64,000 nt of DNA from Escherichia phage 4E8, in sequence record OQ689734.1; one strand, written 5' to 3'. Position numbers and translations under genes: made by a program. Numbering within the stretch: position 1 is the stretch's first letter; the number at the start of each line of letters is the position of its first letter. Below the pieces are notes generated by a model. It did not search any database. It was not told the origin of the DNA and saw only the letters and a list, made by a program, of their open reading frames with translations. Of this stretch, positions 14,154 through 43,539 are shown one piece after another.

Positions 14154-14164
14154 TAATGTATATA
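14154..14164 (+). promoter_or_regulatory. TAATGTATATA motif, candidate phage-sigma-dependent promoter element
   Basis: exact motif ~35 nt upstream of the 1481-aa gene start; same 11-mer recurs at 23855 (+) and 23782 (-), near-copies at 30561 (-) and 35382 (-). Confidence 0.4.
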
Positions 14165-18761: not shown

Positions 18762-19001
18762 CTAGATTAAATCGTAATACTTAATAATATCAGAGAGCTT
18801 AAACTCTCTAATGTCATTCTTGTCATTATCCCAAGCGGTCATTATCCAACAAGGTTTGCCCCCATTATGATAACGGGAAGAAGCAACTGAGGTTCGTATA
18901 GGAATAACGGAGCGGTCTGCAATCTCGCCTCTCCAGTTACGATAGCTAAAGCGAAGAGTTTGTTTCGTAGATACTTGATCATTTGTGCTTTCCTTGTTCA
19001 T
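18762..19001 (-). CDS. hypothetical protein
   Basis: ORF track gives 18762-19121 but that overlaps the upstream HNH gene by 98 nt; internal Met gives a non-overlapping start. Confidence 0.45.
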   Translation of the reverse strand: MNKESTNDQVSTKQTLRFSYRNWRGEIADRSVIPIRTSVASSRYHNGGKPCWIMTAWDNDKNDIREFKLSDIIKYYDLI

Positions 19002-19023
19002 GGATTCAAAGACTTCCTTTTCT

Positions 19024-19428
19024 TCAGGAGTCTCTAGATTTTTTAAATTCGCGTCTTGCATCGTTTTCTTCCTTAGTTTTAATCTTATGGCAGGGTTCTT
19101 TACACAAGACTTGAAAGCCATCTACTTCAACCAAAGCTCTTTCGATGATTTCATCCCAAGATGCTTCATGGTCCACTGGAACAATGGGATTGATGTGGTC
19201 AACAGCTACTTCCTTAAGAGGGTAGTCATTACCACACATGGCACACTTATAGTGCATTGCCAGCTTACCAGTCTTAGGGTTGATCTTGCGTTCTGTCTGA
19301 GCTTCTTTAAGAGAGTCAAACATAGGCTTCCACTTTCTAGTCAGAGAACGAATCCCTGACTTGATGAAGGAATTGTAACGTGCTTCAGTCCATGTCCCAG
19401 AGCACCTAGTCTTCTCAGCCTTCGCCAT
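19024..19428 (-). CDS. HNH endonuclease
   Basis: CAMCG...VDHINPIVPVDHE...LCKEPCH zinc/HNH motif; first ~56 codons of the track ORF look out of frame, start moved to MAKAEK. Confidence 0.65.
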   Translation of the reverse strand: MAKAEKTRCSGTWTEARYNSFIKSGIRSLTRKWKPMFDSLKEAQTERKINPKTGKLAMHYKCAMCGNDYPLKEVAVDHINPIVPVDHEASWDEIIERALVEVDGFQVLCKEPCHKIKTKEENDARREFKKSRDS

Positions 19429-23781: not shown

Positions 23782-23792
23782 TATATACATTA
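23782..23792 (-). promoter_or_regulatory. TAATGTATATA motif (minus strand)
   Basis: exact 11-mer read on minus strand in AT-rich ORF-free intergenic region. Confidence 0.35.
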
Positions 23793-23854: not shown

Positions 23855-23865
23855 TAATGTATATA
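23855..23865 (+). promoter_or_regulatory. TAATGTATATA motif (plus strand), divergent from the copy at 23782
   Basis: exact 11-mer; no + strand gene follows, so may drive an antisense or noncoding transcript. Confidence 0.3.
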
Positions 23866-26375: not shown

Positions 26376-26542
26376 TACTCCCTTTCATAAATTTTAAGAA
26401 CTGTACCGCCATCTGCTTCAATCTGAGCAACTACTTCATCGCGCTCTTCATCAGAATAAACCAGTTGGTTGTGAAATTTGCCTGTACTATCTTGGAAATA
26501 TACATTCCATTTTGGAGCAGGTTTACGAATCAAATCCATCAT
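26375..26542 (-). CDS. small hypothetical protein (55 aa)
   Basis: sub-threshold ORF with GAGGAG RBS; stop overlaps next start. Confidence 0.35.
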   Translation of the reverse strand: MMDLIRKPAPKWNVYFQDSTGKFHNQLVYSDEERDEVVAQIEADGGTVLKIYERE

Positions 26543-26939: not shown

Positions 26940-28787
26940 TTAGTGAGTGTGATTCCAGTTTAACCCAATCTTACAGTCAGATGCCAGAGGGCATTCCATT
27001 TTGAGATACTCACCTGCTTTACGAACACACTCTTCAGTGAGGGTACGAAGTTTGTTAACATCGTCACGATGTACAGTGAACTGGCCTTCATCATGCATGT
27101 CAATAACCTTCGCACAACGAACACCATCACGCTCAATCCATTTATTGAGGAATAGCATTGCATACTTCATAACAATCGCCCCAGCGCTCTGTAAGAGTGT
27201 ATTTAAGGCTTTATGGACCATAACCTTTCCAGTTGCATCTCTTCTCATTGTAATACGACGTCCATCCACACCGTAGATATATCCACTTTGTGCTTTCTCT
27301 GTCATACGTTCAATAAGGATTGCAATACAAGGATTCTCTGCTAAGAATCTTGCTCTCATGATAGCCCCTTCGTCAGAGCCTCCACCAACGATAGAACCGA
27401 GCTTAGCATCACCTGCACCATAGTTAAAGGCATATATAAACGTCTTAGCGTTATCACGAGTAGGAAGACCAGCAAGTTTTTGGTTATGTGAGTGAATGTC
27501 TCCTTCTAAAAGAATATCTCTGTACATAACAGCAGAAGCTAGACCGCGTTCAGCTTCTCGTTTCTTAGCTGGGTTGTTTTCTCGCTCTGCTTCAGCGAGC
27601 ATCTCACGACATTCTTTAATAAGGTAGTGAGCTAGCATCCTCAGCTCAAGACCAGAGCCATCGTAACCTAAGAAGATTTCACGACCAGCAGGTACATAGA
27701 ACTTATAGGCACCTACAGGTTTGTCTTTCTTGCCCGGTTTTCCCACTTCGTAGATAATGTTAGTACCTTTTCGTACGTAACACCCATCAGGGATATGGTT
27801 GGTAATGATGAAAGGATGGTTATGACTGTCGTCTGAGGAATAGTCAGATTGAAAAAGACTGCGGCACTCGTGACCAAACAAACCGCGAGAAGGAATATTA
27901 ACAACAATGCGATGTTTAAAACGAAATGTCGGAGTAGCGCAGCTATTAGCTTCGGCGGACAACTTACCATCTTTACGTTCCTTGTCGATAAGCCCGCTAA
28001 TCAAACCTAGCCTGTGAGCCGCTACAACACGTCTCTTAAGCAAGCTTCCTACACCCCCTAGCTCACCCCCAAGCCCCTCTTCAAGAGTCTCCTCAAGGTT
28101 TGTAGGGGCTGTGGGCCACTTGTTTGATGTAGCCAAAGCTTTTTTGATTTCATCAAAGGTTACAGGTTTCTTCCTATTCGGATTAAGACCTAAACCACTG
28201 ACGTAGGCTTTCATGTAGTTGACAGTGTGATAACGGAAATGTTTATCCAAAAATCTTCGGATATCAGCATCTATCATCTCCGCTATCTGTTTCTCTTTAG
28301 CATTACCTCGAATCCAAGCAGAATACCATGCAGAGTATGTACCATACTTCTTCATAGCTTTACGAATTTCAAAAGTATTCCAAGGTTTCTTAGAATAATT
28401 CCACTCTGGAGGTATAAAACCTTCATCCATCAAGGCTTCTTTAATACGTGCATCTTTTGATGGGTCAAAATCTACATACTCAACGCAAGTAAACGCCCCA
28501 CCGATATCTTCTCTTTTAAGACCAACCCTATCGCAATAGAGCTGAGGCCACTTCTGTAAAGCACCTGATTTCTTAAAAGGCTTAGCATAAGTTGAACCGT
28601 CCACCCGCATTTTGGGGAGGAGAGGAATCAGTTCTTTATCAATATTGACAATAATCTCTTTGAGAAGGTGAACAAACCACCGAGCGTTTCTTCTGTTGAA
28701 GTTGACTCCATGCTTCGCCTGTTTTGAGATTATATCAGCGACTGTCATCTCCGTTATGAAAGGTAACTTATCAGGGTTATCCATCAC
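26940..28787 (-). CDS. DNA polymerase, family A, polymerase domain only (no exonuclease domain)
   Basis: motif A YDGSGLELRMLAHY, motif B RDNAKTFIYAFNYGAGDAKLG, motif C VIDMHDEGQF. Confidence 0.9.
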   Translation of the reverse strand: MMDNPDKLPFITEMTVADIISKQAKHGVNFNRRNARWFVHLLKEIIVNIDKELIPLLPKMRVDGSTYAKPFKKSGALQKWPQLYCDRVGLKREDIGGAFTCVEYVDFDPSKDARIKEALMDEGFIPPEWNYSKKPWNTFEIRKAMKKYGTYSAWYSAWIRGNAKEKQIAEMIDADIRRFLDKHFRYHTVNYMKAYVSGLGLNPNRKKPVTFDEIKKALATSNKWPTAPTNLEETLEEGLGGELGGVGSLLKRRVVAAHRLGLISGLIDKERKDGKLSAEANSCATPTFRFKHRIVVNIPSRGLFGHECRSLFQSDYSSDDSHNHPFIITNHIPDGCYVRKGTNIIYEVGKPGKKDKPVGAYKFYVPAGREIFLGYDGSGLELRMLAHYLIKECREMLAEAERENNPAKKREAERGLASAVMYRDILLEGDIHSHNQKLAGLPTRDNAKTFIYAFNYGAGDAKLGSIVGGGSDEGAIMRARFLAENPCIAILIERMTEKAQSGYIYGVDGRRITMRRDATGKVMVHKALNTLLQSAGAIVMKYAMLFLNKWIERDGVRCAKVIDMHDEGQFTVHRDDVNKLRTLTEECVRKAGEYLKMECPLASDCKIGLNWNHTH

Positions 28788-28800
28788 CCACTCCTTATAA

Positions 28801-29154
28801 TTATTGGTATATTAAATCTGTGAATGCTTGGTTGTCTTCAACAATATCTAAAGCTTCATATGAATCAGCCAATTCATCCACATAAAAGACTGCTGGAACA
28901 TCTTCTGCTCGCTGTCTACGAGCTTCTCTCCGTTCGTTGCTGTTTCTCTGAACCTGTGCAAGTTTCATACCCCACACCTGCTCATATAACTCTGGATACT
29001 TGTCACTAACCACTACATAGTTTCGAGCTGGTTGGTTTCTATTAATCTTCGCTGTCAACTCAATAAACTGGCGAAACTCTTGAATAGAGAGGTTATCATG
29101 AATATTATCCCACTTGAGAACGCAGTGACGTTCTAGGCGTTGAGGTACTGGCAT
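28801..29154 (-). CDS. hypothetical protein
   Basis: 117-aa ORF. Confidence 0.5.
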   Translation of the reverse strand: MPVPQRLERHCVLKWDNIHDNLSIQEFRQFIELTAKINRNQPARNYVVVSDKYPELYEQVWGMKLAQVQRNSNERREARRQRAEDVPAVFYVDELADSYEALDIVEDNQAFTDLIYQ

Positions 29155-29157
29155 AAC

Positions 29158-29427
29158 TTACTCCAATGTAGGGAATGGTTTTAGGTTGTTCATGGCTGTA
29201 CGAACATCAGCACAGATTTCAGGGTCACGATAAGAGAGGAATTTACCATCCTTACCACGAATCATTACATTAGTCCGTGCTGTTTTATTAGGCAATAAAG
29301 AAATCCCTCCAATAAGATGGTTGGTAGGGTGTTGTCCTTGATTAACTTTGTAATCATGAGTCTGAGCGTCACCGTTAAAGAGATGATCACGAATTTGGAT
29401 TAAACTAATCTTCATATTATGCACCAA
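29158..29427 (-). CDS. hypothetical protein, tandem paralog a
   Basis: shares ARTNV-x-RG-DGKF-S-RD ... NLKPFP with the next gene. Confidence 0.5.
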   Translation of the reverse strand: MVHNMKISLIQIRDHLFNGDAQTHDYKVNQGQHPTNHLIGGISLLPNKTARTNVMIRGKDGKFLSYRDPEICADVRTAMNNLKPFPTLE

Positions 29428-29668
29428 AGTTAGGGAAAGGTTTCAGGTTTTCAATAGACTTAGCAATACGCTTAGGAACACTGCTATCACGGAAGGAGAT
29501 AAACTTTCCATCAGCACCACGAAGAGCTACGTTAGTGCGAGCTGATGTTTGGTTAAACTGAATCATCTCAACAGCACCTGTAACGTTTTCTACAGGGAAG
29601 GTGTAGCTTTCGGTTGCATTCTGAGAGGGGAGAAAATCAGTTACAGTGATATAAGTTACTTTAGACAT
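29417..29668 (-). CDS. hypothetical protein, tandem paralog b
   Basis: shares ARTNVALRGADGKFISFRD ... ENLKPFP. Confidence 0.5.
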   Translation of the reverse strand: MSKVTYITVTDFLPSQNATESYTFPVENVTGAVEMIQFNQTSARTNVALRGADGKFISFRDSSVPKRIAKSIENLKPFPNFGA

Positions 29669-29687
29669 ATTTATTACCTTAGGTTAT

Positions 29688-29720
29688 ATAAAAGAAAAGG
29701 CCACCCGAAATGGGTAGCCT
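29688..29720 (-). terminator. rho-independent terminator (minus strand)
   Basis: ggctaccca-tttc-gggtggcc hairpin followed by TTTTCTTTT on minus strand. Confidence 0.55.
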
Positions 29721-29724
29721 TATA

Positions 29725-30219
29725 TTAACTTGAGCTTAAAGCGTGTCTGATAGCTGTATGGCTTACACCAAACATTCTACCTAAAGCTCTTGTTCCAAAC
29801 TGAGCAGAACCTTTGACATAAAGATTTTTAACTCTTTTAACATCCTCTGTATTAAGTTTCATTCTAGGGTTTATGTTCCTGTGATGGCCTACATTAAGAC
29901 CTGTATCAAAAGAATGTTGAACATTCTCAGAAGCATCTGCCCACTCTAGATTCTCAATACGATTATCACTTTTTACACCATTCTTATGATTTATCTGAGG
30001 TTTGTTTTCAGGGTTAGGTATGAAAAAGGTTGCTATCAACCTATGAGCTTTCCATGACCTCCCTTCAAAATAAACCCTAATATAACCTTTAGTGTCTAAG
30101 TGGCCAGCCTCTTTACCCGGATGGCTCTTATTCCACTTAAGACCTTTTGAAGACGACTCTGTGTAAAACAGACGACCAGAATCTCTATCATAAGAGAGGT
30201 AGTCGGATATAGGAATCAC
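29725..30219 (-). CDS. HNH homing endonuclease
   Basis: GTG start; KAHRL...NP...INHKNG...DNRIENLEW HNH core plus C-terminal HTH-like LGRMFGVSHTAIRHA. Confidence 0.7.
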   Translation of the reverse strand: MIPISDYLSYDRDSGRLFYTESSSKGLKWNKSHPGKEAGHLDTKGYIRVYFEGRSWKAHRLIATFFIPNPENKPQINHKNGVKSDNRIENLEWADASENVQHSFDTGLNVGHHRNINPRMKLNTEDVKRVKNLYVKGSAQFGTRALGRMFGVSHTAIRHALSSS

Positions 30220-30530
30220 TGACTCAGCGCCCCCTTCCTTCCACCATTTGATTTTCCAGCACGATCTCCACTTTTGCCGCCGTTCGAGCGATTTCGAGAG
30301 ACTGATTCAACACGTAAGTTACTTGACGCATTAGAACCTCCCGACTTGATTGATCGTTTGTGTCCAACATCTTTACCTCGGACAGCAGCTTTTCCATCGC
30401 GCTTTTCAACGATGCGACGTGCACGGTGGCGCTGAGCATCTCCGCTCTTGCTACCAACACCTGTCTCACCCCTTGCGATTGCAGTTCTTCGTTCTTGTGC
30501 ATAATCACGTTTCGCCTTATCGGTCATCAT
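30216..30530 (-). CDS. basic Gly/Arg/Lys-rich hypothetical protein
   Basis: ATG with AAGGAG RBS; 4-nt overlap with HNH gene; a second full-length ORF (30224-30508) exists in another frame. Confidence 0.4.
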   Translation of the reverse strand: MMTDKAKRDYAQERRTAIARGETGVGSKSGDAQRHRARRIVEKRDGKAAVRGKDVGHKRSIKSGGSNASSNLRVESVSRNRSNGGKSGDRAGKSNGGRKGALSQ

Positions 30531-30560: not shown

Positions 30561-30571
30561 AGTATACATTA
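30561..30571 (-). promoter_or_regulatory. TAATGTATACT promoter-like motif (minus strand)
   Basis: ~30 nt upstream of the 30530 start. Confidence 0.3.
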
Positions 30572-30574
30572 TAT

Positions 30575-31312
30575 TTATGATTTTTCAGATTCCATTGCTT
30601 TAACAATAGCTTTACAGAAACCTGAACGAACAATATCATCCGATTCGCCATCTACTAGAGCGGCAAATTCAAATAACTGGTGACGGTAGATGAAATCAGT
30701 AGCCCAATCAAGACCGCTCTCACCACGCATGTCGTGCTGGTTAGTGTCCCCCATGCAGAACATCTGAGAGGTTTCACCAAGACGTGTCATGATTGAATAT
30801 GCTTCATCAGGAGTAGTGTTCTGGAACTCATCAACAATCACGATAGCATCGTTGAACGAGCGACCACGTAGATATTCCAGAGGTACGAACTCAATATTAC
30901 CATTACCTACTTGACATTCGTAGAAACCTTTACCGTAGCGCTGAGTAATAACATCAACGATTGGCATTAGGTATGGTTCAAACTTCTCACGAAGCCCACC
31001 GGGAAGTAATCCAAGACTATTACCCATACCAACAGCAGGTCGGCTTAGGATAATCTTCTCAATCTTCCCACTCTTCAGAGCATCAATCACTGTAGAAGTG
31101 ATTACGAAGGTCTTACCACAACCAGCAGGAGCATCTGTGAATACAACCTGTTTGGTTTTAATTGCATCAAGCAGCTCACTCTGGAATTGGTTCTGAGGTA
31201 CTACCGGCTTAGCAAGAACTACTTCTTCAAATTCCCGCTTTCCTTTCTTGGTGACGAGAGCTTCACGACGTAATTCTCTCCGTGATGCTTTCCGAGATTC
31301 TCTACGACTCAT
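30575..31312 (-). CDS. phoH: PhoH-like ATPase
   Basis: Walker A DAPAGCGKTF, Walker B IVDEFQN, PhoH motifs LPGGLREKFEPY and CMGDTNQHD. Confidence 0.85.
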   Translation of the reverse strand: MSRRESRKASRRELRREALVTKKGKREFEEVVLAKPVVPQNQFQSELLDAIKTKQVVFTDAPAGCGKTFVITSTVIDALKSGKIEKIILSRPAVGMGNSLGLLPGGLREKFEPYLMPIVDVITQRYGKGFYECQVGNGNIEFVPLEYLRGRSFNDAIVIVDEFQNTTPDEAYSIMTRLGETSQMFCMGDTNQHDMRGESGLDWATDFIYRHQLFEFAALVDGESDDIVRSGFCKAIVKAMESEKS

Positions 31313-35381: not shown

Positions 35382-35392
35382 TATATACATTT
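35382..35392 (-). promoter_or_regulatory. AAATGTATATA promoter-like motif (minus strand)
   Basis: one mismatch from TAATGTATATA; ~38 nt upstream of the 35344 start. Confidence 0.3.
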
Positions 35393-38190: not shown

Positions 38191-38726
38191 TTTAGAGATG
38201 GGGGATTCTTATAATCAAATCCAGCCATTTGACAAAGACACATGTAAACTTTAACTGTCAAGTTAACGTCTTGCTCACAATAGGTGAACATGTCTTCAGT
38301 GAATGCGTCCCATGCCTCCTCCTGTTCTCCATAATCTCCTTTCAGCTCCCCAAGAAACTCGCCCCATTGTCTGAGGCCGTGACCACGAGGGCCATGTCTA
38401 GGGTCGCCTTTGGGGTATTCTGGACTATCACCAATACGGTCAGGCTTGAGATATCTACTCAGGCACAAAGTATCGAAGACGTTAAAGCGAAAAGGTATCA
38501 CATGAGAATAAAACTTAAACAAAGCAGGAAGGTCAAAATCAATAATATTGTGACCTATTACTACATCAGCCTCTTTCAGTTTGTGTAGTGCTTCTTCAAT
38601 TTGGTGAGGGCGATACCCCCACCGCTCTCCAGATAATACATCAAATATCCAGATACACCAGACATTCTGAATACCATCATAGAGATTATCCCCCTCAATA
38701 TCAAACGCATACAGTTTCTTTACCAC
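38178..38726 (-). CDS. 3'-5' proofreading exonuclease (DEDDy), stand-alone
   Basis: Exo I FDIEGD, Exo [10 protein letters not shown], Exo III YCEQDV. Confidence 0.8.
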
Positions 38727-40510
38727 GGACGTGCCTCCCCTTCTTGTGCAAGTAAGGAAGCTGCATCCTCTCCATTGGTAACGGTAAAAGGATGCTCTTC
38801 ATCAACTTCATGATCTTCTCGTTCTACAAGACGACCTGTTTCATTGATGTATTTGGTATAGCAAACCCCTGTCTGTCCATAGTTACGCTCTTTGAGCAGT
38901 CGTATGATTGACAAGTTTTTACCTAACCCATCCGCTTGTTTGTTACGTTCAAAACCAATAATACACTGACACCAGCGCATCAATGAACGTGAACCAGTAA
39001 ACTGTACTTCTTTAACCTGACCACCTTCTTCGTGAGGTGCACCACCTGCCGGAGCGTTCAAGTGAGATAATACAAAAGCAGTGAAGTCTAATTCCTTACA
39101 CATACCAGCAAGCTCTGAAGCAATCTTGCTGATTTCTGTGTTTACCTCAGATGGGGTTAAGTGAGATACCAATGCAGTGATGTTATCAAGAATGATAAAT
39201 TTACACTGATTCTCAACTACCCAAAAGCGAATACACTGCTTAATGTCTTCCCACTCGTTCTGCCCAAAATTGTCATACAAGAAAAACTTATCAGCGTATC
39301 GAAGTGCTTCATCTCGTAGCTGGCTTTCTTCGTACTCAACATCTGGTCGGTGGAATGGAATAGATGCAGATTTACCTGCAATGTTCTTAACAGACATGCC
39401 TACCTTCTCTTCCAAGAAGAAGCCACCACCATTAAAACCATGCTCAAGGCAAAGCCATGCTACTAGTTCGTGTGCGATTAAGGTTTTACCTGAACCAACA
39501 CCACCGCCGATTGCAACCATCTCTCCCCAACGAATACCAAAGGTCATGTCGTTAAGAGTTTTCCACGGATAAGGAATACCCCATTCCGCTTTCTTCAGAG
39601 CATCTTCGAGGCAATCAAAAACTGTAACAGCGCCGGCAGGAGATTCCCGCTTAGCTGAATATTTCAGATTGTTGAAAAGCTCTTGACCTCTCCCTGCAAG
39701 TAACATGTCGTTTGCATCTTTGATTTCCTTTTCTTGTCCGTTATAAGTGAACGTACCTTTTGGAATCCTTGCAAACTTAACATGCGGGTACAGAGAACGA
39801 CCCTTAGTTAAAGCAATCTCACCTGCATCATCATTGTCCATGCAGAGTACAATCTCCTCGAAACCATTAATAAAATCACGGTTTCTTGATAATACAGAAG
39901 AGATTGAACCTGCACCGAACGGAAGAGAGACGCAAGCAGGTTTGATGTTAGTTGCGTTTGTAAACGCGGTAAGTACGTGGAACCCAGACATACAAGAGAG
40001 AGGATCTTCAAAGATGAAGAGTTTCTTGTTGTATACGTCACCACGTTGTGCTTGAGCCATACCAAACAAGTCGGCTTCTTTCACATTACCTACATAATAG
40101 AACTTCTTGCTGTCTAGAAGTTTTACTTCATATCCAACAATGTTCCCATCACGTTCACGAGGGAAGAAGTAGCTGTCAGGAGTTTGACCATCTGTTTGGC
40201 TTAAACCGATACGGCATCCATAACGTTCAGATACAGCTTTAGGAATTAAGCGACGAGTCAACTCTCCCTGAGGAAGCTCTAAGCAATCGTCTAAGACTTC
40301 TCGGAGTTCTTCAGGGGACAGCTCTTTCTTTTCATTAGGAGTGGGCGTCGTTCCTTTCTCGAAGATTTCATACGCACCACATCTGTTACATGAACCCCAC
40401 TCCTCACCGGACTCTTCATTTCGGAAGAGAATCATGTGATTGCGGGTCTTATCACGACCATGAGAGATACACTCTTTACAGCCTGTGTCTCCCAAAATGA
40501 TCTTTGACAT
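38720..40510 (-). CDS. DNA primase-helicase (T7 gp4-like)
   Basis: N-terminal Zn ribbon CKEC...CNRC, TOPRIM acidic motifs (CMDNDDAGE), helicase Walker [10 protein letters not shown]. Confidence 0.9.
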
Positions 40511-40545: not shown

Positions 40546-40752
40546 TTAGTAAAACGATCGTATTTCTTCCCACACATCATCTTGCAAGTTTCTAAAACCC
40601 TGCAAGGTTTGCTTTGTTCTGTGAATAAATTCTTCAGAGTGCTTGTCGGGTGTGAGCATACTGACAAACTTTTCATAGCGATTAATCTTCCACCGCATCT
40701 TCAAGTAGTCAGATTCCAGCTTTCTTAACTTCTGCCTGTCAGTTACTGTCAT
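40546..40752 (-). CDS. hypothetical protein
   Basis: track ORF 40546-40848 overlaps upstream gene by 110 nt; internal Met start used. Confidence 0.35.
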   Translation of the reverse strand: MTVTDRQKLRKLESDYLKMRWKINRYEKFVSMLTPDKHSEEFIHRTKQTLQGFRNLQDDVWEEIRSFY

Positions 40753-41170
40753 CCTTCTCACCTGCCAGATATGCTGTCCAGTCACCAGATTCAACCAGAA
40801 CATCTTGTTCTTCGTCGATGTGATAAATCCACGCTTCCACAGTTTCACCGCTGTCCAATAATACTGGAATCAGTGTACGCTTGTAAAAGGTGTATGGGTT
40901 ATCATTACCACGATGACCTTCCAGACCGTCATACGGACCTTCCAGACCAGCTTGGGTTGTTTCAAAGACTTCTACACGAACAGGCTTACCATTGCTGTCA
41001 TGCTCCAAAGATACACTTGGGAAGTATGCTGTGCAATACTGATACAGGTTACAGTTGTTTACTGTCCACCCTTCACCAATAGACACACCACCTGCACGAG
41101 CATTGATAGCGTGGTTGTGTTGACCTTTACGAAGAGAACCATACGTTGCAACTAATACTTTATCAGACAT
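40739..41170 (-). CDS. gamma-glutamyl cyclotransferase-like (AIG2/GGCT fold) protein
   Basis: N-terminal VATYGSLRKGQHNH (YGSL-x-G motif) and downstream conserved Glu region. Confidence 0.6.
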   Translation of the reverse strand: MSDKVLVATYGSLRKGQHNHAINARAGGVSIGEGWTVNNCNLYQYCTAYFPSVSLEHDSNGKPVRVEVFETTQAGLEGPYDGLEGHRGNDNPYTFYKRTLIPVLLDSGETVEAWIYHIDEEQDVLVESGDWTAYLAGEKDDSN

Positions 41171-42303: not shown

Positions 42304-43539
42304 TTACAGAGTTACTGCTACTTCGCTACCTTCAACACTGACAGACTCTAACTTGCGAGGGTTATGAATCTGGACTGGATTGACCGGAACGTTCCAACCA
42401 CTGCGGTAGAAGTTACGACCATCACAGAACAGGATGACATTGGCAGACATTGCATTCGGTTGCAGGTTGTTGTGGACATGACGGATATTTGCAATCCAGT
42501 AGCCACGAGACAAAGTGTAGCCAGTAGGTGCATTACGAATAGTTTGAGTATTCATCTGACCTTCCAGTTGCATTTCTTCAGGAACCACATCAACTGAATC
42601 AATCGGCTGTGCTACTTGTCCTTCCAGTGCAAAGTTTTCATCATCAGCACTTTCAATATCATCCACCAACTCACCGTCTCCATCTTCAATCGGAGTCTGG
42701 TAAACCACTTTATACTGAGGAGTATAGAGAGGGTTCTGAGCTTTAACAAACTCAAGAATGTTATGACGGTAGGTATCCAGAGTTGTACCAGTCAGGCCCG
42801 GTGCTGTATTAACTTCCAGTACCCACGCTTCTTGACCTTTGGTGATAATATCAACTGCACCGAAATCCAGACCCATTGATTCAACAGCTTTCACCGCATT
42901 GATCAGAGAGGCGTCATTCGGAGCATCTGTGAAGGAGCTTGAGTAAACCCAGCCAGTGTGGTGATTACGAATATCTTCACGATAGTTAGGGTCTTCTCGA
43001 TAACCGTTGCGACGAATCTTCTTCTGAACATAGGTGATTACACCTTTGAACACATGGACACGCCACTCACGACGTGGGCCTTGAATGCCTTTAGTGTACA
43101 GTTCAGCTCGACCAAGACCATCACCCGGTTCTACAACAACAATGCCCGAACCAGAGTGACCAGTCAGCTCATGGCGCTCATACACAATATTACCAGTGTT
43201 TGACCACTCTTGAGCAGTCTCTTGAACATCTGTGTATTCCACAGTTTTAACACCTGCTTGGTCCATCACGCTGAAAGCACGACGTTTGTTCGCTGCCATA
43301 TGTAAGGCTGCGGTACGGTTAAGGACGGTTGCAGAACCAAAGAATGATTCAGGATAGCGACGGTTCCCGTAGTTAACAACCACATCACCTTCACGAGAAC
43401 GCCAGCGGCTATTCTCTGAAAGAAGACCCATCACGTTAGCATTGATGCGTTCATCACGGATAGTATCACTGATAGCAGATACTAGAGCGTTAACAGAATC
43501 AGACGGGCCATACGGAAGAACACGGATACGAGTAGTCAT
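42304..43539 (-). CDS. ATP-grasp ligase (RimK / glutathione-synthetase-like)
   Basis: EWRVHVFKGVITYV and GLDFGAVDIITKGQEAWVLEVNTAPGL match the ATP-grasp C-terminal signature. Confidence 0.7.
   Translation of the reverse strand: MTTRIRVLPYGPSDSVNALVSAISDTIRDERINANVMGLLSENSRWRSREGDVVVNYGNRRYPESFFGSATVLNRTAALHMAANKRRAFSVMDQAGVKTVEYTDVQETAQEWSNTGNIVYERHELTGHSGSGIVVVEPGDGLGRAELYTKGIQGPRREWRVHVFKGVITYVQKKIRRNGYREDPNYREDIRNHHTGWVYSSSFTDAPNDASLINAVKAVESMGLDFGAVDIITKGQEAWVLEVNTAPGLTGTTLDTYRHNILEFVKAQNPLYTPQYKVVYQTPIEDGDGELVDDIESADDENFALEGQVAQPIDSVDVVPEEMQLEGQMNTQTIRNAPTGYTLSRGYWIANIRHVHNNLQPNAMSANVILFCDGRNFYRSGWNVPVNPVQIHNPRKLESVSVEGSEVAVTL

What the first reader, a model, noticed from the sequence alone, without database searches (positions are those of the whole stretch)
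29158..29668. Tandem paralogs with a conserved ARTNV...RG-DGKF-S-RD...NLKPFP core
Two adjacent 83-89-aa ORFs directly downstream of the polymerase operon share a long conserved block but differ at the N-terminus. They are co-oriented with an 11-nt overlap. Function is unknown; the duplication suggests a dosage or heteromer requirement.
Basis: seen in the sequence. Interest (0 to 1): 0.4.

Follow-up and report, generated by a model that had tools for sequence, protein, structure and literature searches.

The report
Duplicated small phage gene beside polymerase
Two neighbouring 83- and 85-residue genes in this phiEco32-like E. coli phage are old, diverged copies of one small phage-only protein of unknown function that sits just ahead of the DNA polymerase gene; this is a real but fairly ordinary feature of phage genomes.

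Summary
The paralogy is real. The two minus-strand ORFs share 37% identity (BLASTP E = 3e-17; shuffle z = 26), the motif TARTNV-x-[LI]RG-x-DGKF-x-S[YF]RD and an NLKPFP tail. Both match phrog_6814 (unknown function).

Two details in the finding are wrong:
- The second gene starts at ATG 29415 (85 aa), as every annotated relative has it. The copies are separated by 1 nt and do not overlap by 11.
- The genes lie upstream of the polymerase, in the tightly spaced series A, B, orf117, polA, behind a conserved terminator-like hairpin.

The window is a Gordonclarkvirinae (Suseptimavirus-like) coliphage. The pair corresponds to phiEco32 gp57/gp56.

- **Age and selection:** the duplication predates the Kuravirus/Suseptimavirus split. 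Both copies are under purifying selection (dN/dS 0.13-0.18 and 0.04-0.06).
- **Dispensability:** some relatives carry one copy, so the pair is not obligatory.
- **Distribution:** the family is tiny, with 40 representatives among 1.84 billion proteins.
- **Rate:** the family evolves far faster than its neighbours (about 40% identity against 87% for the polymerase).

Function remains unknown. The most likely role is a small non-enzymatic binding protein of the replication-stage operon. Interest is low to moderate.

The parts
29417..29668 (-). Gene A, 83 aa, upstream paralog (phiEco32 gp57 / SU10 gp54 / SU7_54 type)
   Evidence: ORF. phrog_6814, E = 1.1e-28. Identical to a protein of Escherichia phage 4E8. 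dN/dS 0.13-0.18 against relatives. AF2 model pLDDT 88 with order beta-beta-alpha-beta-(beta)-alpha.
29158..29415 (-). Gene B, 85 aa, downstream paralog (phiEco32 gp56 / SU10 gp53 / SU7_53 type); start ATG 29415, not TTG 29427
   Evidence: Annotated as 258 nt in relatives. phrog_6814, E = 1.1e-31. 98.8% identical to the SU7 and IME267 proteins. dN/dS 0.04-0.06. AF2 model pLDDT 77.5 with the same order of secondary-structure elements.
29687..29721 (-). Terminator-like hairpin (10-bp G+C-rich stem, 5-nt loop) followed by UUUUCUUUU, 19-53 nt upstream of the gene A start codon
   Evidence: Found by the pattern scan. Folds at -18.3 kcal/mol, z = -3.0. Present at the same place in all 15 relatives compared, including distant ones whose stem sequences differ. 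Annotated as a terminator in SU7.
28801..29154 (-). orf117, starting 3 nt after gene B; fast-evolving partner gene (phrog_11427) found wherever the family is found, except in L023
   Evidence: tblastn finds it in 98 phiEco32-like E. coli/Shigella phage records, the same number and host breakdown as for the family, plus one weak Shewanella phage hit. Homologous N-terminal domain in the 220- and 256-aa proteins of L006 and L008.
26940..28784 (-). Family A DNA polymerase, polymerase domain only, last gene of the series
   Evidence: The phiEco32 record notes that it 'lacks 5'-3' and 3'-5' exonuclease domains'. 80-87% identical in relatives whose family members are only 35-45% identical.
30216..30530 (-). 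orf104, a conserved basic Gly/Ser/Arg/Lys-rich protein (phrog_4590) that precedes the hairpin in all relatives
   Evidence: 71% identical in L008 and 86-91% in Bas92 and KBNP1711.
29725..30219 (-). HNH homing endonuclease gene inserted between orf104 and the hairpin; a mobile insertion, not part of the pair
   Evidence: Pfam HNH_3, E = 4.6e-11. Present in EK010, E20-1 and Bas89 and absent from most relatives, whose matches cover only 86% of the query.
30563..30570 (-). Exact AATGTATA, the core of the phiEco32 gp36-sigma middle/late promoter element, between the PhoH gene and orf104; the probable promoter of the transcription unit
   Evidence: Pattern search. The consensus tAATGTAtA and a middle promoter at the equivalent place in SU10 are reported in PMC4281155 and PMC8948821. 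Eight bases alone are not significant: the match count in the window is no higher than in shuffles.

Best explanation
**Shown**
- A and B are the products of an old tandem duplication of a small (about 85 aa) gene found only in phiEco32-like podophages.
- Both are real protein-coding genes under purifying selection.
- They lie in a close-packed series A, B, orf117, DNA polymerase, with spacers of 1, 3 and 16 nt. This series sits in the region that is the middle (replication-stage) class in phiEco32. It follows a conserved terminator-like hairpin and is about 0.9 kb downstream of a gp36-type promoter core.
- Both proteins are predicted to adopt the same small fold, ordered beta1-beta2-alpha1-beta3-(beta4)-alpha2.
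- The nearly invariant residues are T42 A43 R44 T45 N46 V47, L49 R50 G51, D53 G54 K55 F56, S58 Y59, and L75-x-P77 F78 P79. They fall in beta3, the turn, beta4 and the C-terminal tail. The beta1-beta2-alpha1 half is highly variable.

**Inferred**
- The proteins are non-enzymatic binders. They are small, match no catalytic family, and their conserved part is a basic hairpin.
- The conserved basic C-terminal half (pI 11.0 in A, 9.5 in B) is the shared functional surface. It would contact one kind of conserved ligand: an acidic protein partner or nucleic acid.
- The variable N-terminal half gives each paralog its own specificity or is simply weakly constrained.
- My committed guess for the role is an accessory factor made together with the replication proteins that neutralises or recruits a host or phage protein acting on replicating phage DNA. 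This would resemble the small host-interaction proteins encoded next to the T7 polymerase gene. I do not think it is a core replisome subunit.
- Tight spacing suggests that A, B and orf117 are made together and may associate. The pairing is facultative.
For: - **Paralogy:**
- **Coding and selection:** dN/dS is 0.13-0.18 for A and 0.04-0.06 for B, against 0.03 for the polymerase.
- **Age:** B-types of the two genera cluster together.
- **Same fold:**
- **Conservation map and pI:**
- **Accessory, fast-evolving character:** against KBNP1711, A is 43% identical, B 35% and orf117 47%, while PhoH is 89%, orf104 91% and the polymerase 87%. The same pattern holds against L008.
- **Variable copy number:** one or two copies, a third type in KBNP1711, and another pair in L021/L022.
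- **Narrow distribution:** 40 representatives among 1.84 billion proteins. The family occurs in 98 phage records, all E. coli or Shigella phiEco32-like phages. It is absent from E. coli genomes and from plasmids.
- **Synteny and spacing:**
- **Middle-class assignment by homology to phiEco32 and SU10:** PMC4281155 and PMC8948821.
- **Not a virion protein:** SU10 virion mass spectrometry listed gp55 and gp56 but not gp53 or gp54, which are the pair.
Against: - There is no direct functional evidence of any kind. I found no experimental study of phiEco32 gp56/gp57 or their orthologues.
- The fold search gives only generic two-layer alpha/beta matches.
- Synteny with the polymerase could be simple inheritance, since all carriers are fairly close relatives (polymerase 74-87% identical). 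In one diverged contig (L023) the family member lies elsewhere, next to the GGACT and primase/helicase homologues.
- Fast evolution could reflect weak constraint rather than interaction with a host target.
- The conserved polar residues R, T, N and S could equally mark a nucleic-acid-binding site or a small-ligand site.
Confidence: 0.35

Rival explanations
1. Replisome accessory subunits. A and B, possibly with orf117, bind the exonuclease-less family A polymerase or the primer-template. They would act as processivity, loading or bridging factors, produced in fixed ratio with the polymerase through tightly spaced translation.
For: - The genes lie immediately upstream of the polymerase, with 1-16 nt spacers, in every relative but one.
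- This polymerase lacks both exonuclease domains, and its exonucleases are encoded separately, so extra subunits are plausible (PMC9965538).
- In the one exception the family member still sits beside the primase/helicase gene.
- The conserved half is basic.
Against: - The polymerase is 80-87% identical where the family members are 35-45% identical. A tightly bound subunit would be expected to keep pace.
- The copy number varies between one and two.
- Proteus phage Privateer, whose polymerase is the next most similar in the listed rows (47% identical), has no convincing homologue upstream of its polymerase: hhalign probability 8.9%.
Confidence: 0.25
2. Small nucleic-acid-binding regulators. The basic beta-hairpin binds RNA or DNA, for example to control translation or stability of the polymerase mRNA or to mark replication intermediates.
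For: - pI is 9.2-9.3 overall, and 11.0 (A) and 9.5 (B) for the C-terminal half.
- R44, R50, K55 and K/R60 are invariant or nearly so.
- The genes sit directly behind a conserved RNA hairpin.
Against: - No match to any known nucleic-acid-binding family or fold.
- The N-terminal half of A is acidic (pI 4.05).
- The charge pattern alone is weak evidence.
Confidence: 0.15
3. Obligate A-B heterodimer, or a dosage requirement. The duplication is maintained because both subunits, or twice the amount, are needed.
For: - The 1-nt spacer between the copies is conserved in every pair seen, including a separate metagenomic lineage.
- Both copies are under purifying selection.
- No genome examined has a B-type alone.
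Against: - Single-copy relatives have otherwise identical gene order: EP335, Bas89, Bas92 and Bas94, with L006 and L008 also single-copy in the same order.
- 37% identity and separate orthologous lineages argue against dosage.
Confidence: 0.15

Closest known systems
phiEco32 gp57 and gp56 (phi32_57, phi32_56), with SU10 gp54/gp53 and SU7_54/SU7_53; PHROG family phrog_6814
   Same: Orthologues. They share the tandem arrangement, the 1-nt spacer, the position between the orf104 homologue and the orf117 homologue plus polymerase, the motif and the length.
   Different: Nothing of substance differs. The window's A allele is diverged from other Suseptimavirus alleles (88-89% protein identity, dS 0.37) and is identical to that of phage 4E8. 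All are annotated 'hypothetical protein'. I found no mention of the paralogy in the papers searched.
Small host-interaction proteins encoded beside the T7 DNA polymerase gene (gp5.5, gp5.7, gp5.9); from my own knowledge of T7 biology, not tested here
   Same: Small, non-enzymatic, lineage-specific proteins that are co-expressed with replication genes and encoded next to the polymerase gene.
   Different: No sequence or fold similarity was found. This is an analogy of genomic setting only.
FAM3 / ILEI-PANDER fold (PDB 2yoq, 7ecq) and the POMGnT1 stem domain (5ggf)
Small phage-encoded protein inhibitors with solved structures: phi29 and VMY22 p56 (UDG inhibitor), T7 Gp2 (RNA polymerase inhibitor), T4 Dmd
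   Different: The scores are at noise level and there is no sequence similarity. Those proteins are acidic DNA or protein mimics, whereas A and B are basic overall.

Membership tests
phrog_6814 (uncharacterised phage protein family) | Full-length match to the family profile | tested here: met
   A: E = 1.1e-28, residues 1-81 on profile positions 1-85 of 86. B: E = 1.1e-31, residues 1-83 on profile positions 2-84.
phrog_6814 / 'TARTNV...PFP' family as delimited here | Motif T-A-R-T-N-V-x-[LI]-[RK]-G-x-D-G-[KR]-F-x-S-[YF] and a C-terminal L-x-P-F-P | tested here: met
   Both copies carry it. These columns are 90-100% conserved over 102 distinct family sequences.
phrog_6814 family as delimited here | Gene position: after the orf104 homologue and hairpin, before the orf117 homologue and the polymerase | tested here: met
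   Same order in the window and in all loci examined except L023.
FAM3 / ILEI-PANDER domain | Significant structural or profile similarity to the ILEI domain | tested here: inconclusive
Beta sliding-clamp binding proteins (clamp-binding motif QL[SD]LF / QLxLxL; consensus recalled from memory) | A consensus clamp-binding peptide, usually in a flexible terminus | tested here: not met
   The tail reads N-L-K-P-F-P. The Q is absent and P replaces the fourth-position L. The tail has pLDDT about 80, so it probably packs on the domain rather than hanging free. Binding itself cannot be tested with these tools.
Small phage inhibitor folds (p56, T7 Gp2, Dmd) | Significant structural similarity | tested here: not met
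Autotransporter adhesin (label carried by some GenBank records for family members) | Autotransporter or adhesin domains | tested here: not met
   No Pfam or NCBIfam domain of any kind in these 83-85 aa proteins. The label appears and looks like an annotation artefact.
Bacterial SH3_3 repeat proteins (hit P0083 in the exhaustive search) | SH3_3 domain | tested here: not met
   P0083 matches through eight repeats of a 20-residue stretch and is an SH3_3/peptidase protein. P0092 is made of kinesin motor repeats. These are summed weak matches, not homologues. The predicted fold contains helices.
Obligate two-subunit system (A + B) | Strict co-occurrence of both subunits | tested here: not met
   Single-copy genomes with the same neighbours exist: EP335, Bas89 and Bas92 by profile scan, Bas94 by tblastn, and L006 and L008.
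Obligate two-subunit system (A + B) | Physical A-B interaction | not testable with these tools
   Only single-chain structure prediction was available.

The most novel reading that the evidence does not exclude
A, B and the equally fast-evolving orf117 form a small complex made alongside the polymerase. The complex would use the invariant basic hairpin and PFP tail to dock on a conserved host or phage replication or repair protein, and its variable N-terminal halves would track host diversity. That would make it a previously unrecognised family of replication-stage host-takeover or anti-defence adaptors specific to phiEco32-like phages, built on a fold with no solved relative.
Probability: 0.15. 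Interest if true: 0.5.

Novelty: new member of a known kind. Interest (0 to 1): 0.25.

Why it matters
If the pair does target a host or phage replication or repair protein, it would add a new small-protein family and fold to the set of phage takeover or anti-defence factors. It would also help explain how phiEco32-like phages, which are used as therapy candidates, run a polymerase that lacks both exonuclease domains. As things stand, the result mainly corrects the gene model. It also records that gp57/gp56-type proteins are ancient paralogs, and that together with orf117 they form a fast-evolving island between two highly conserved genes. That is useful for annotation and for choosing deletion targets, but a phage specialist would not find it surprising.

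Tried and rejected
- **Domain libraries.** Pfam, NCBIfam and PADLOC gave nothing for A, B, orf117 or orf104.
- **PDB by sequence.** The family profile search returned only chance-level hits, the best being SpoIID at E = 0.047. orf117 and orf104 also found nothing.
- **Exhaustive profile search.** It added no distant annotated relatives. The two long hits, P0083 and P0092, are repeat-protein artefacts.
- **Clamp-binding or SSB-tail-like reading of the NLKPFP tail.** Rejected on sequence and on model confidence.
- **A homologue in Proteus phage Privateer.** gp057 shows 'MTRKTNIMVRD' at a similar gene position, but the profile E-value is only 0.0034 among 12 proteins and the hhalign probability is 8.9%. 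I treat it as unconfirmed.
- **Promoter between the hairpin and gene A.** No conserved gp36-type element is there; the ATGTA seen in some relatives is not conserved.
- **Literature.** No functional data on the pair.
- **Chromosomal or plasmid copies.** None found.
- **Not attempted.** I did not try a fused A-linker-B chain to test the heterodimer.

Full report
**What the window is.** The region 28000-31500 matches 98 phage records, all phiEco32-like E. coli or Shigella podophages (subfamily Gordonclarkvirinae). The best full-length matches are EK010 and E20-1 at 93% identity. NC-B, IME267 and Bas87 reach 97-98% once an inserted HNH gene is set aside. Structural genes lie on the plus strand up to about 18.6 kb. 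The remaining genes are on the minus strand.

**The observation.** On the minus strand there are two adjacent ORFs, A (29668..29417, 83 aa) and B.
- BLASTP gives 37% identity over 83 columns, E = 3e-17.
- The Smith-Waterman score is 128 against 22.8 +/- 4.0 for 2000 shuffles.
- The conserved block is [ST]ARTNV-x-[LI]RG-x-DGKF-x-S[FY]RD...NLKPFP. It is 53% identical in protein, with 45% identity at third codon positions.

The paralogy is therefore real and old. Two details need correcting.
- The 89-aa version of B, and hence the 11-nt overlap, comes from the longest-ORF start at TTG 29427. Every annotated relative uses the ATG equivalent to 29415 (85 aa). That start aligns with the N-termini of A and of the B-type orthologues and has a GGTG 6 nt upstream. 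The junction is TAA-t-ATG.
- The coding strand is the minus strand, so the pair lies upstream of the polymerase, not downstream.

**Local anatomy, in the direction of transcription (decreasing coordinates).**
1. PhoH-like gene (31312..30575).
2. An exact AATGTATA at 30570..30563. This is the core of the phiEco32 gp36-sigma middle/late promoter element. SU10 has a middle promoter at the equivalent place (PMC4281155 and PMC8948821).
3. orf104 (30530..30216).
4. An HNH homing endonuclease gene (30219..29725) that many relatives lack.
5. A 10-bp hairpin plus U-run (29721..29687; -18.3 kcal/mol, z = -3).
6. A, then a 1-nt spacer, then B, then a 3-nt spacer.
7. orf117 (29154..28801), then 16 nt.
8. 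A family A DNA polymerase (28784..26940). The phiEco32 record describes it as lacking both exonuclease domains. The exonucleases are encoded separately in this group (PMC9965538).

The hairpin is present at the same place in all 15 relatives compared, including distant ones whose stem sequences differ, and SU7 annotates it as a terminator. The A-B-orf117-polymerase series is probably expressed by read-through from the promoter upstream of orf104. That is inferred, not shown.

**Family and distribution.**
- Both proteins match phrog_6814 (unknown function) over their full length. Nothing matches in Pfam, NCBIfam or PADLOC.
- tblastn finds the family in 98 phage records of the same phiEco32-like group, the same number that the DNA query matched. 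Most records have two copies.
- A profile built from 66 members, run against 1.84 billion representative proteins, found only 40 hits at E <= 0.001. Nearly all are 80-100 aa. Two long hits are repeat-protein artefacts.
- There are no copies in 5,426 complete E. coli genomes or in PLSDB plasmids.
- In phiEco32 the pair is gp57 and gp56, in SU10 gp54 and gp53, and in SU7 SU7_54 and SU7_53.
- I found no functional study of them. They were not among the proteins detected in SU10 virions.

**Evolution.**
- In a distance tree (neighbour-joining, no support values) the B-types of Suseptimavirus and Kuravirus cluster together, apart from the A-types. The duplication therefore appears to predate the split of these genera.
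- KBNP1711 carries a distinct second copy. A metagenomic lineage (L021/L022) carries another tandem pair.
- EP335, Bas89 and Bas92 have a single A-type copy with unchanged neighbours, and Bas94 does so by tblastn. The more distant metagenomic relatives L006 and L008 also carry a single copy in the same gene order. No genome with a B-type alone was seen.
- Within the genus, both genes are under purifying selection. dN/dS is 0.13-0.18 for A and 0.04-0.06 for B, against 0.03 for the polymerase.
- Between genera the family evolves far faster than its neighbours. Against KBNP1711 the identities are PhoH 89%, orf104 91%, A 43%, B 35%, orf117 47% and polymerase 87%. The comparison with L008 shows the same pattern.
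- A, B and orf117 therefore form a fast-evolving island between two highly conserved genes.
- The order orf104, family member(s), orf117 homologue, polymerase holds in every locus except L023. There the family member lies between homologues of window genes 42304-43539 and 18762-19121 on one side and the GGACT (40739-41170) and primase/helicase (38720-40510) homologues on the other.

**Structure.**
- AlphaFold2 with the family alignment gives A a mean pLDDT of 88 (pTM 0.78) and B 77.5.
- Both have the element order beta1-beta2-alpha1-beta3-(beta4)-alpha2, followed by the L-x-P-F-P tail.
- The invariant and nearly invariant residues lie on beta3, the DGK turn, beta4 and the tail. The beta1-beta2-alpha1 half is variable.
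- The C-terminal half is strongly basic: pI 11.0 in A and 9.5 in B.
- Foldseek against viral models finds only family members.
- The fold is best described as a small two-layer alpha/beta sandwich with no demonstrable relative.

**Interpretation.** The following are shown:
- an ancient tandem duplication;
- both copies functional at the level of selection;
- the same predicted fold;
- close-packed genes ahead of the polymerase;
- facultative pairing;
- a narrow phage-only distribution;
- fast divergence between genera.

The following are inferred.
- The proteins are non-enzymatic binders whose conserved basic hairpin and tail form the functional surface.
- They act at the replication stage of infection.
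- Their variable copy number, fast evolution and absence from the phage with the next most similar polymerase among the listed matches (Privateer, 47% identical) point more towards an accessory role than a core replisome subunit. That role would be host-interaction or modulation, like the small genes that flank the T7 polymerase gene (my own knowledge).

I give this reading 0.35. The last overlaps with the others in so far as a facultative A-B-orf117 complex is possible.

**Verdict.** The genes are already deposited as hypothetical proteins in about a hundred phage genomes and are grouped in a PHROG. What is added here is the paralogy, its age and its facultative nature, the fast-evolving island with orf117, and a confident fold model without known relatives. 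Interest is 0.25.

Noticed in passing
window 29725-30219 (minus strand): An HNH homing endonuclease gene (Pfam HNH_3) is inserted between orf104 and the conserved hairpin, and its start overlaps the orf104 stop by 4 nt. It is present in EK010, E20-1 and Bas89 but absent from most close relatives. The polymerase gene of several relatives (Bas89, Bas93, KBNP1711, L006, L008) is itself split by inserted endonuclease genes (endonuclease VII in Bas93, L006 and L008), so this region is a hotspot for homing elements.
   Followed up: partly
window 30216-30530 (minus strand): orf104 is a very basic protein rich in Gly, Ser, Arg and Lys, and is conserved much better than its neighbours (71-91% identity). 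It contains what looks like a degenerate cysteine-less HNH-type motif (KDVGHKRSIKSGGSNASSNLRVESVSRNRS; relatives have DVDH). Proteus phage Privateer gp065 looks related (not formally compared). No Pfam, NCBIfam or PDB match.
   Followed up: partly
window 29687-29721 (minus strand): A terminator-like hairpin with a U-run lies just upstream of gene A. It is conserved in position in all 15 relatives compared, including distant ones with changed stem bases. It would attenuate transcription entering the A-B-orf117-polymerase series, or it could serve as an RNA processing or stability element.
   Followed up: partly
window 28801-29154 (minus strand); L006 4486-5148; L008 6266-7036; L021 685-1518: orf117 (phrog_11427) has a conserved N-terminal domain of about 70 aa (MP.P.R...KWD......YVV[VI]S[DN]K...LYEEVWGM) and a C-terminal extension of very variable length (117 to 277 aa in total), acidic in the window copy. 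It accompanies the A/B family in every locus but L023 and evolves about as fast.
   Followed up: partly
window 29417-29668 compared with 29158-29415: The window's gene A is much more diverged from other Suseptimavirus genomes (dS about 0.37, 9-10 amino-acid changes) than gene B next to it (dS about 0.12, 1-2 changes), and it is identical to the allele of phage 4E8. This suggests a recombination boundary at or near the A/B junction.
   Followed up: partly
window 30563-30570, 26499-26506, 23784-23791, 35384-35391 (minus strand); 14155-14162, 23856-23863 (plus strand): These are the exact copies of AATGTATA, the core of the phiEco32 gp36-sigma promoter element. Several lie in intergenic positions that fit middle or late promoters. 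The octamer alone is not over-represented in the window.
   Followed up: no
L025 2961-3227 (Proteus phage Privateer gp057): An 88-aa protein two genes upstream of the Privateer polymerase starts MSKLVTIYSRDY and contains MTRKTNIMVRD, which resembles the family motif. It lacks the second helix and the PFP tail. Statistical support is weak (hhalign probability 8.9%).
   Followed up: yes
GenBank records of relatives (e.g. EcoN5, 172-1, ES17, XT73): Some deposited genomes label members of this 85-aa family 'autotransporter adhesin'. Nothing in the sequences supports this, and it looks like propagated misannotation.
   Followed up: partly
window 30224-30508 (minus strand, alternative frame inside orf104): A 94-aa ORF in another frame of orf104 also gives BLAST hits in relatives, but at lower identity (42-73%) than the orf104 frame (71-91%). 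It is most likely a by-product of the conserved DNA rather than a second gene.
   Followed up: no
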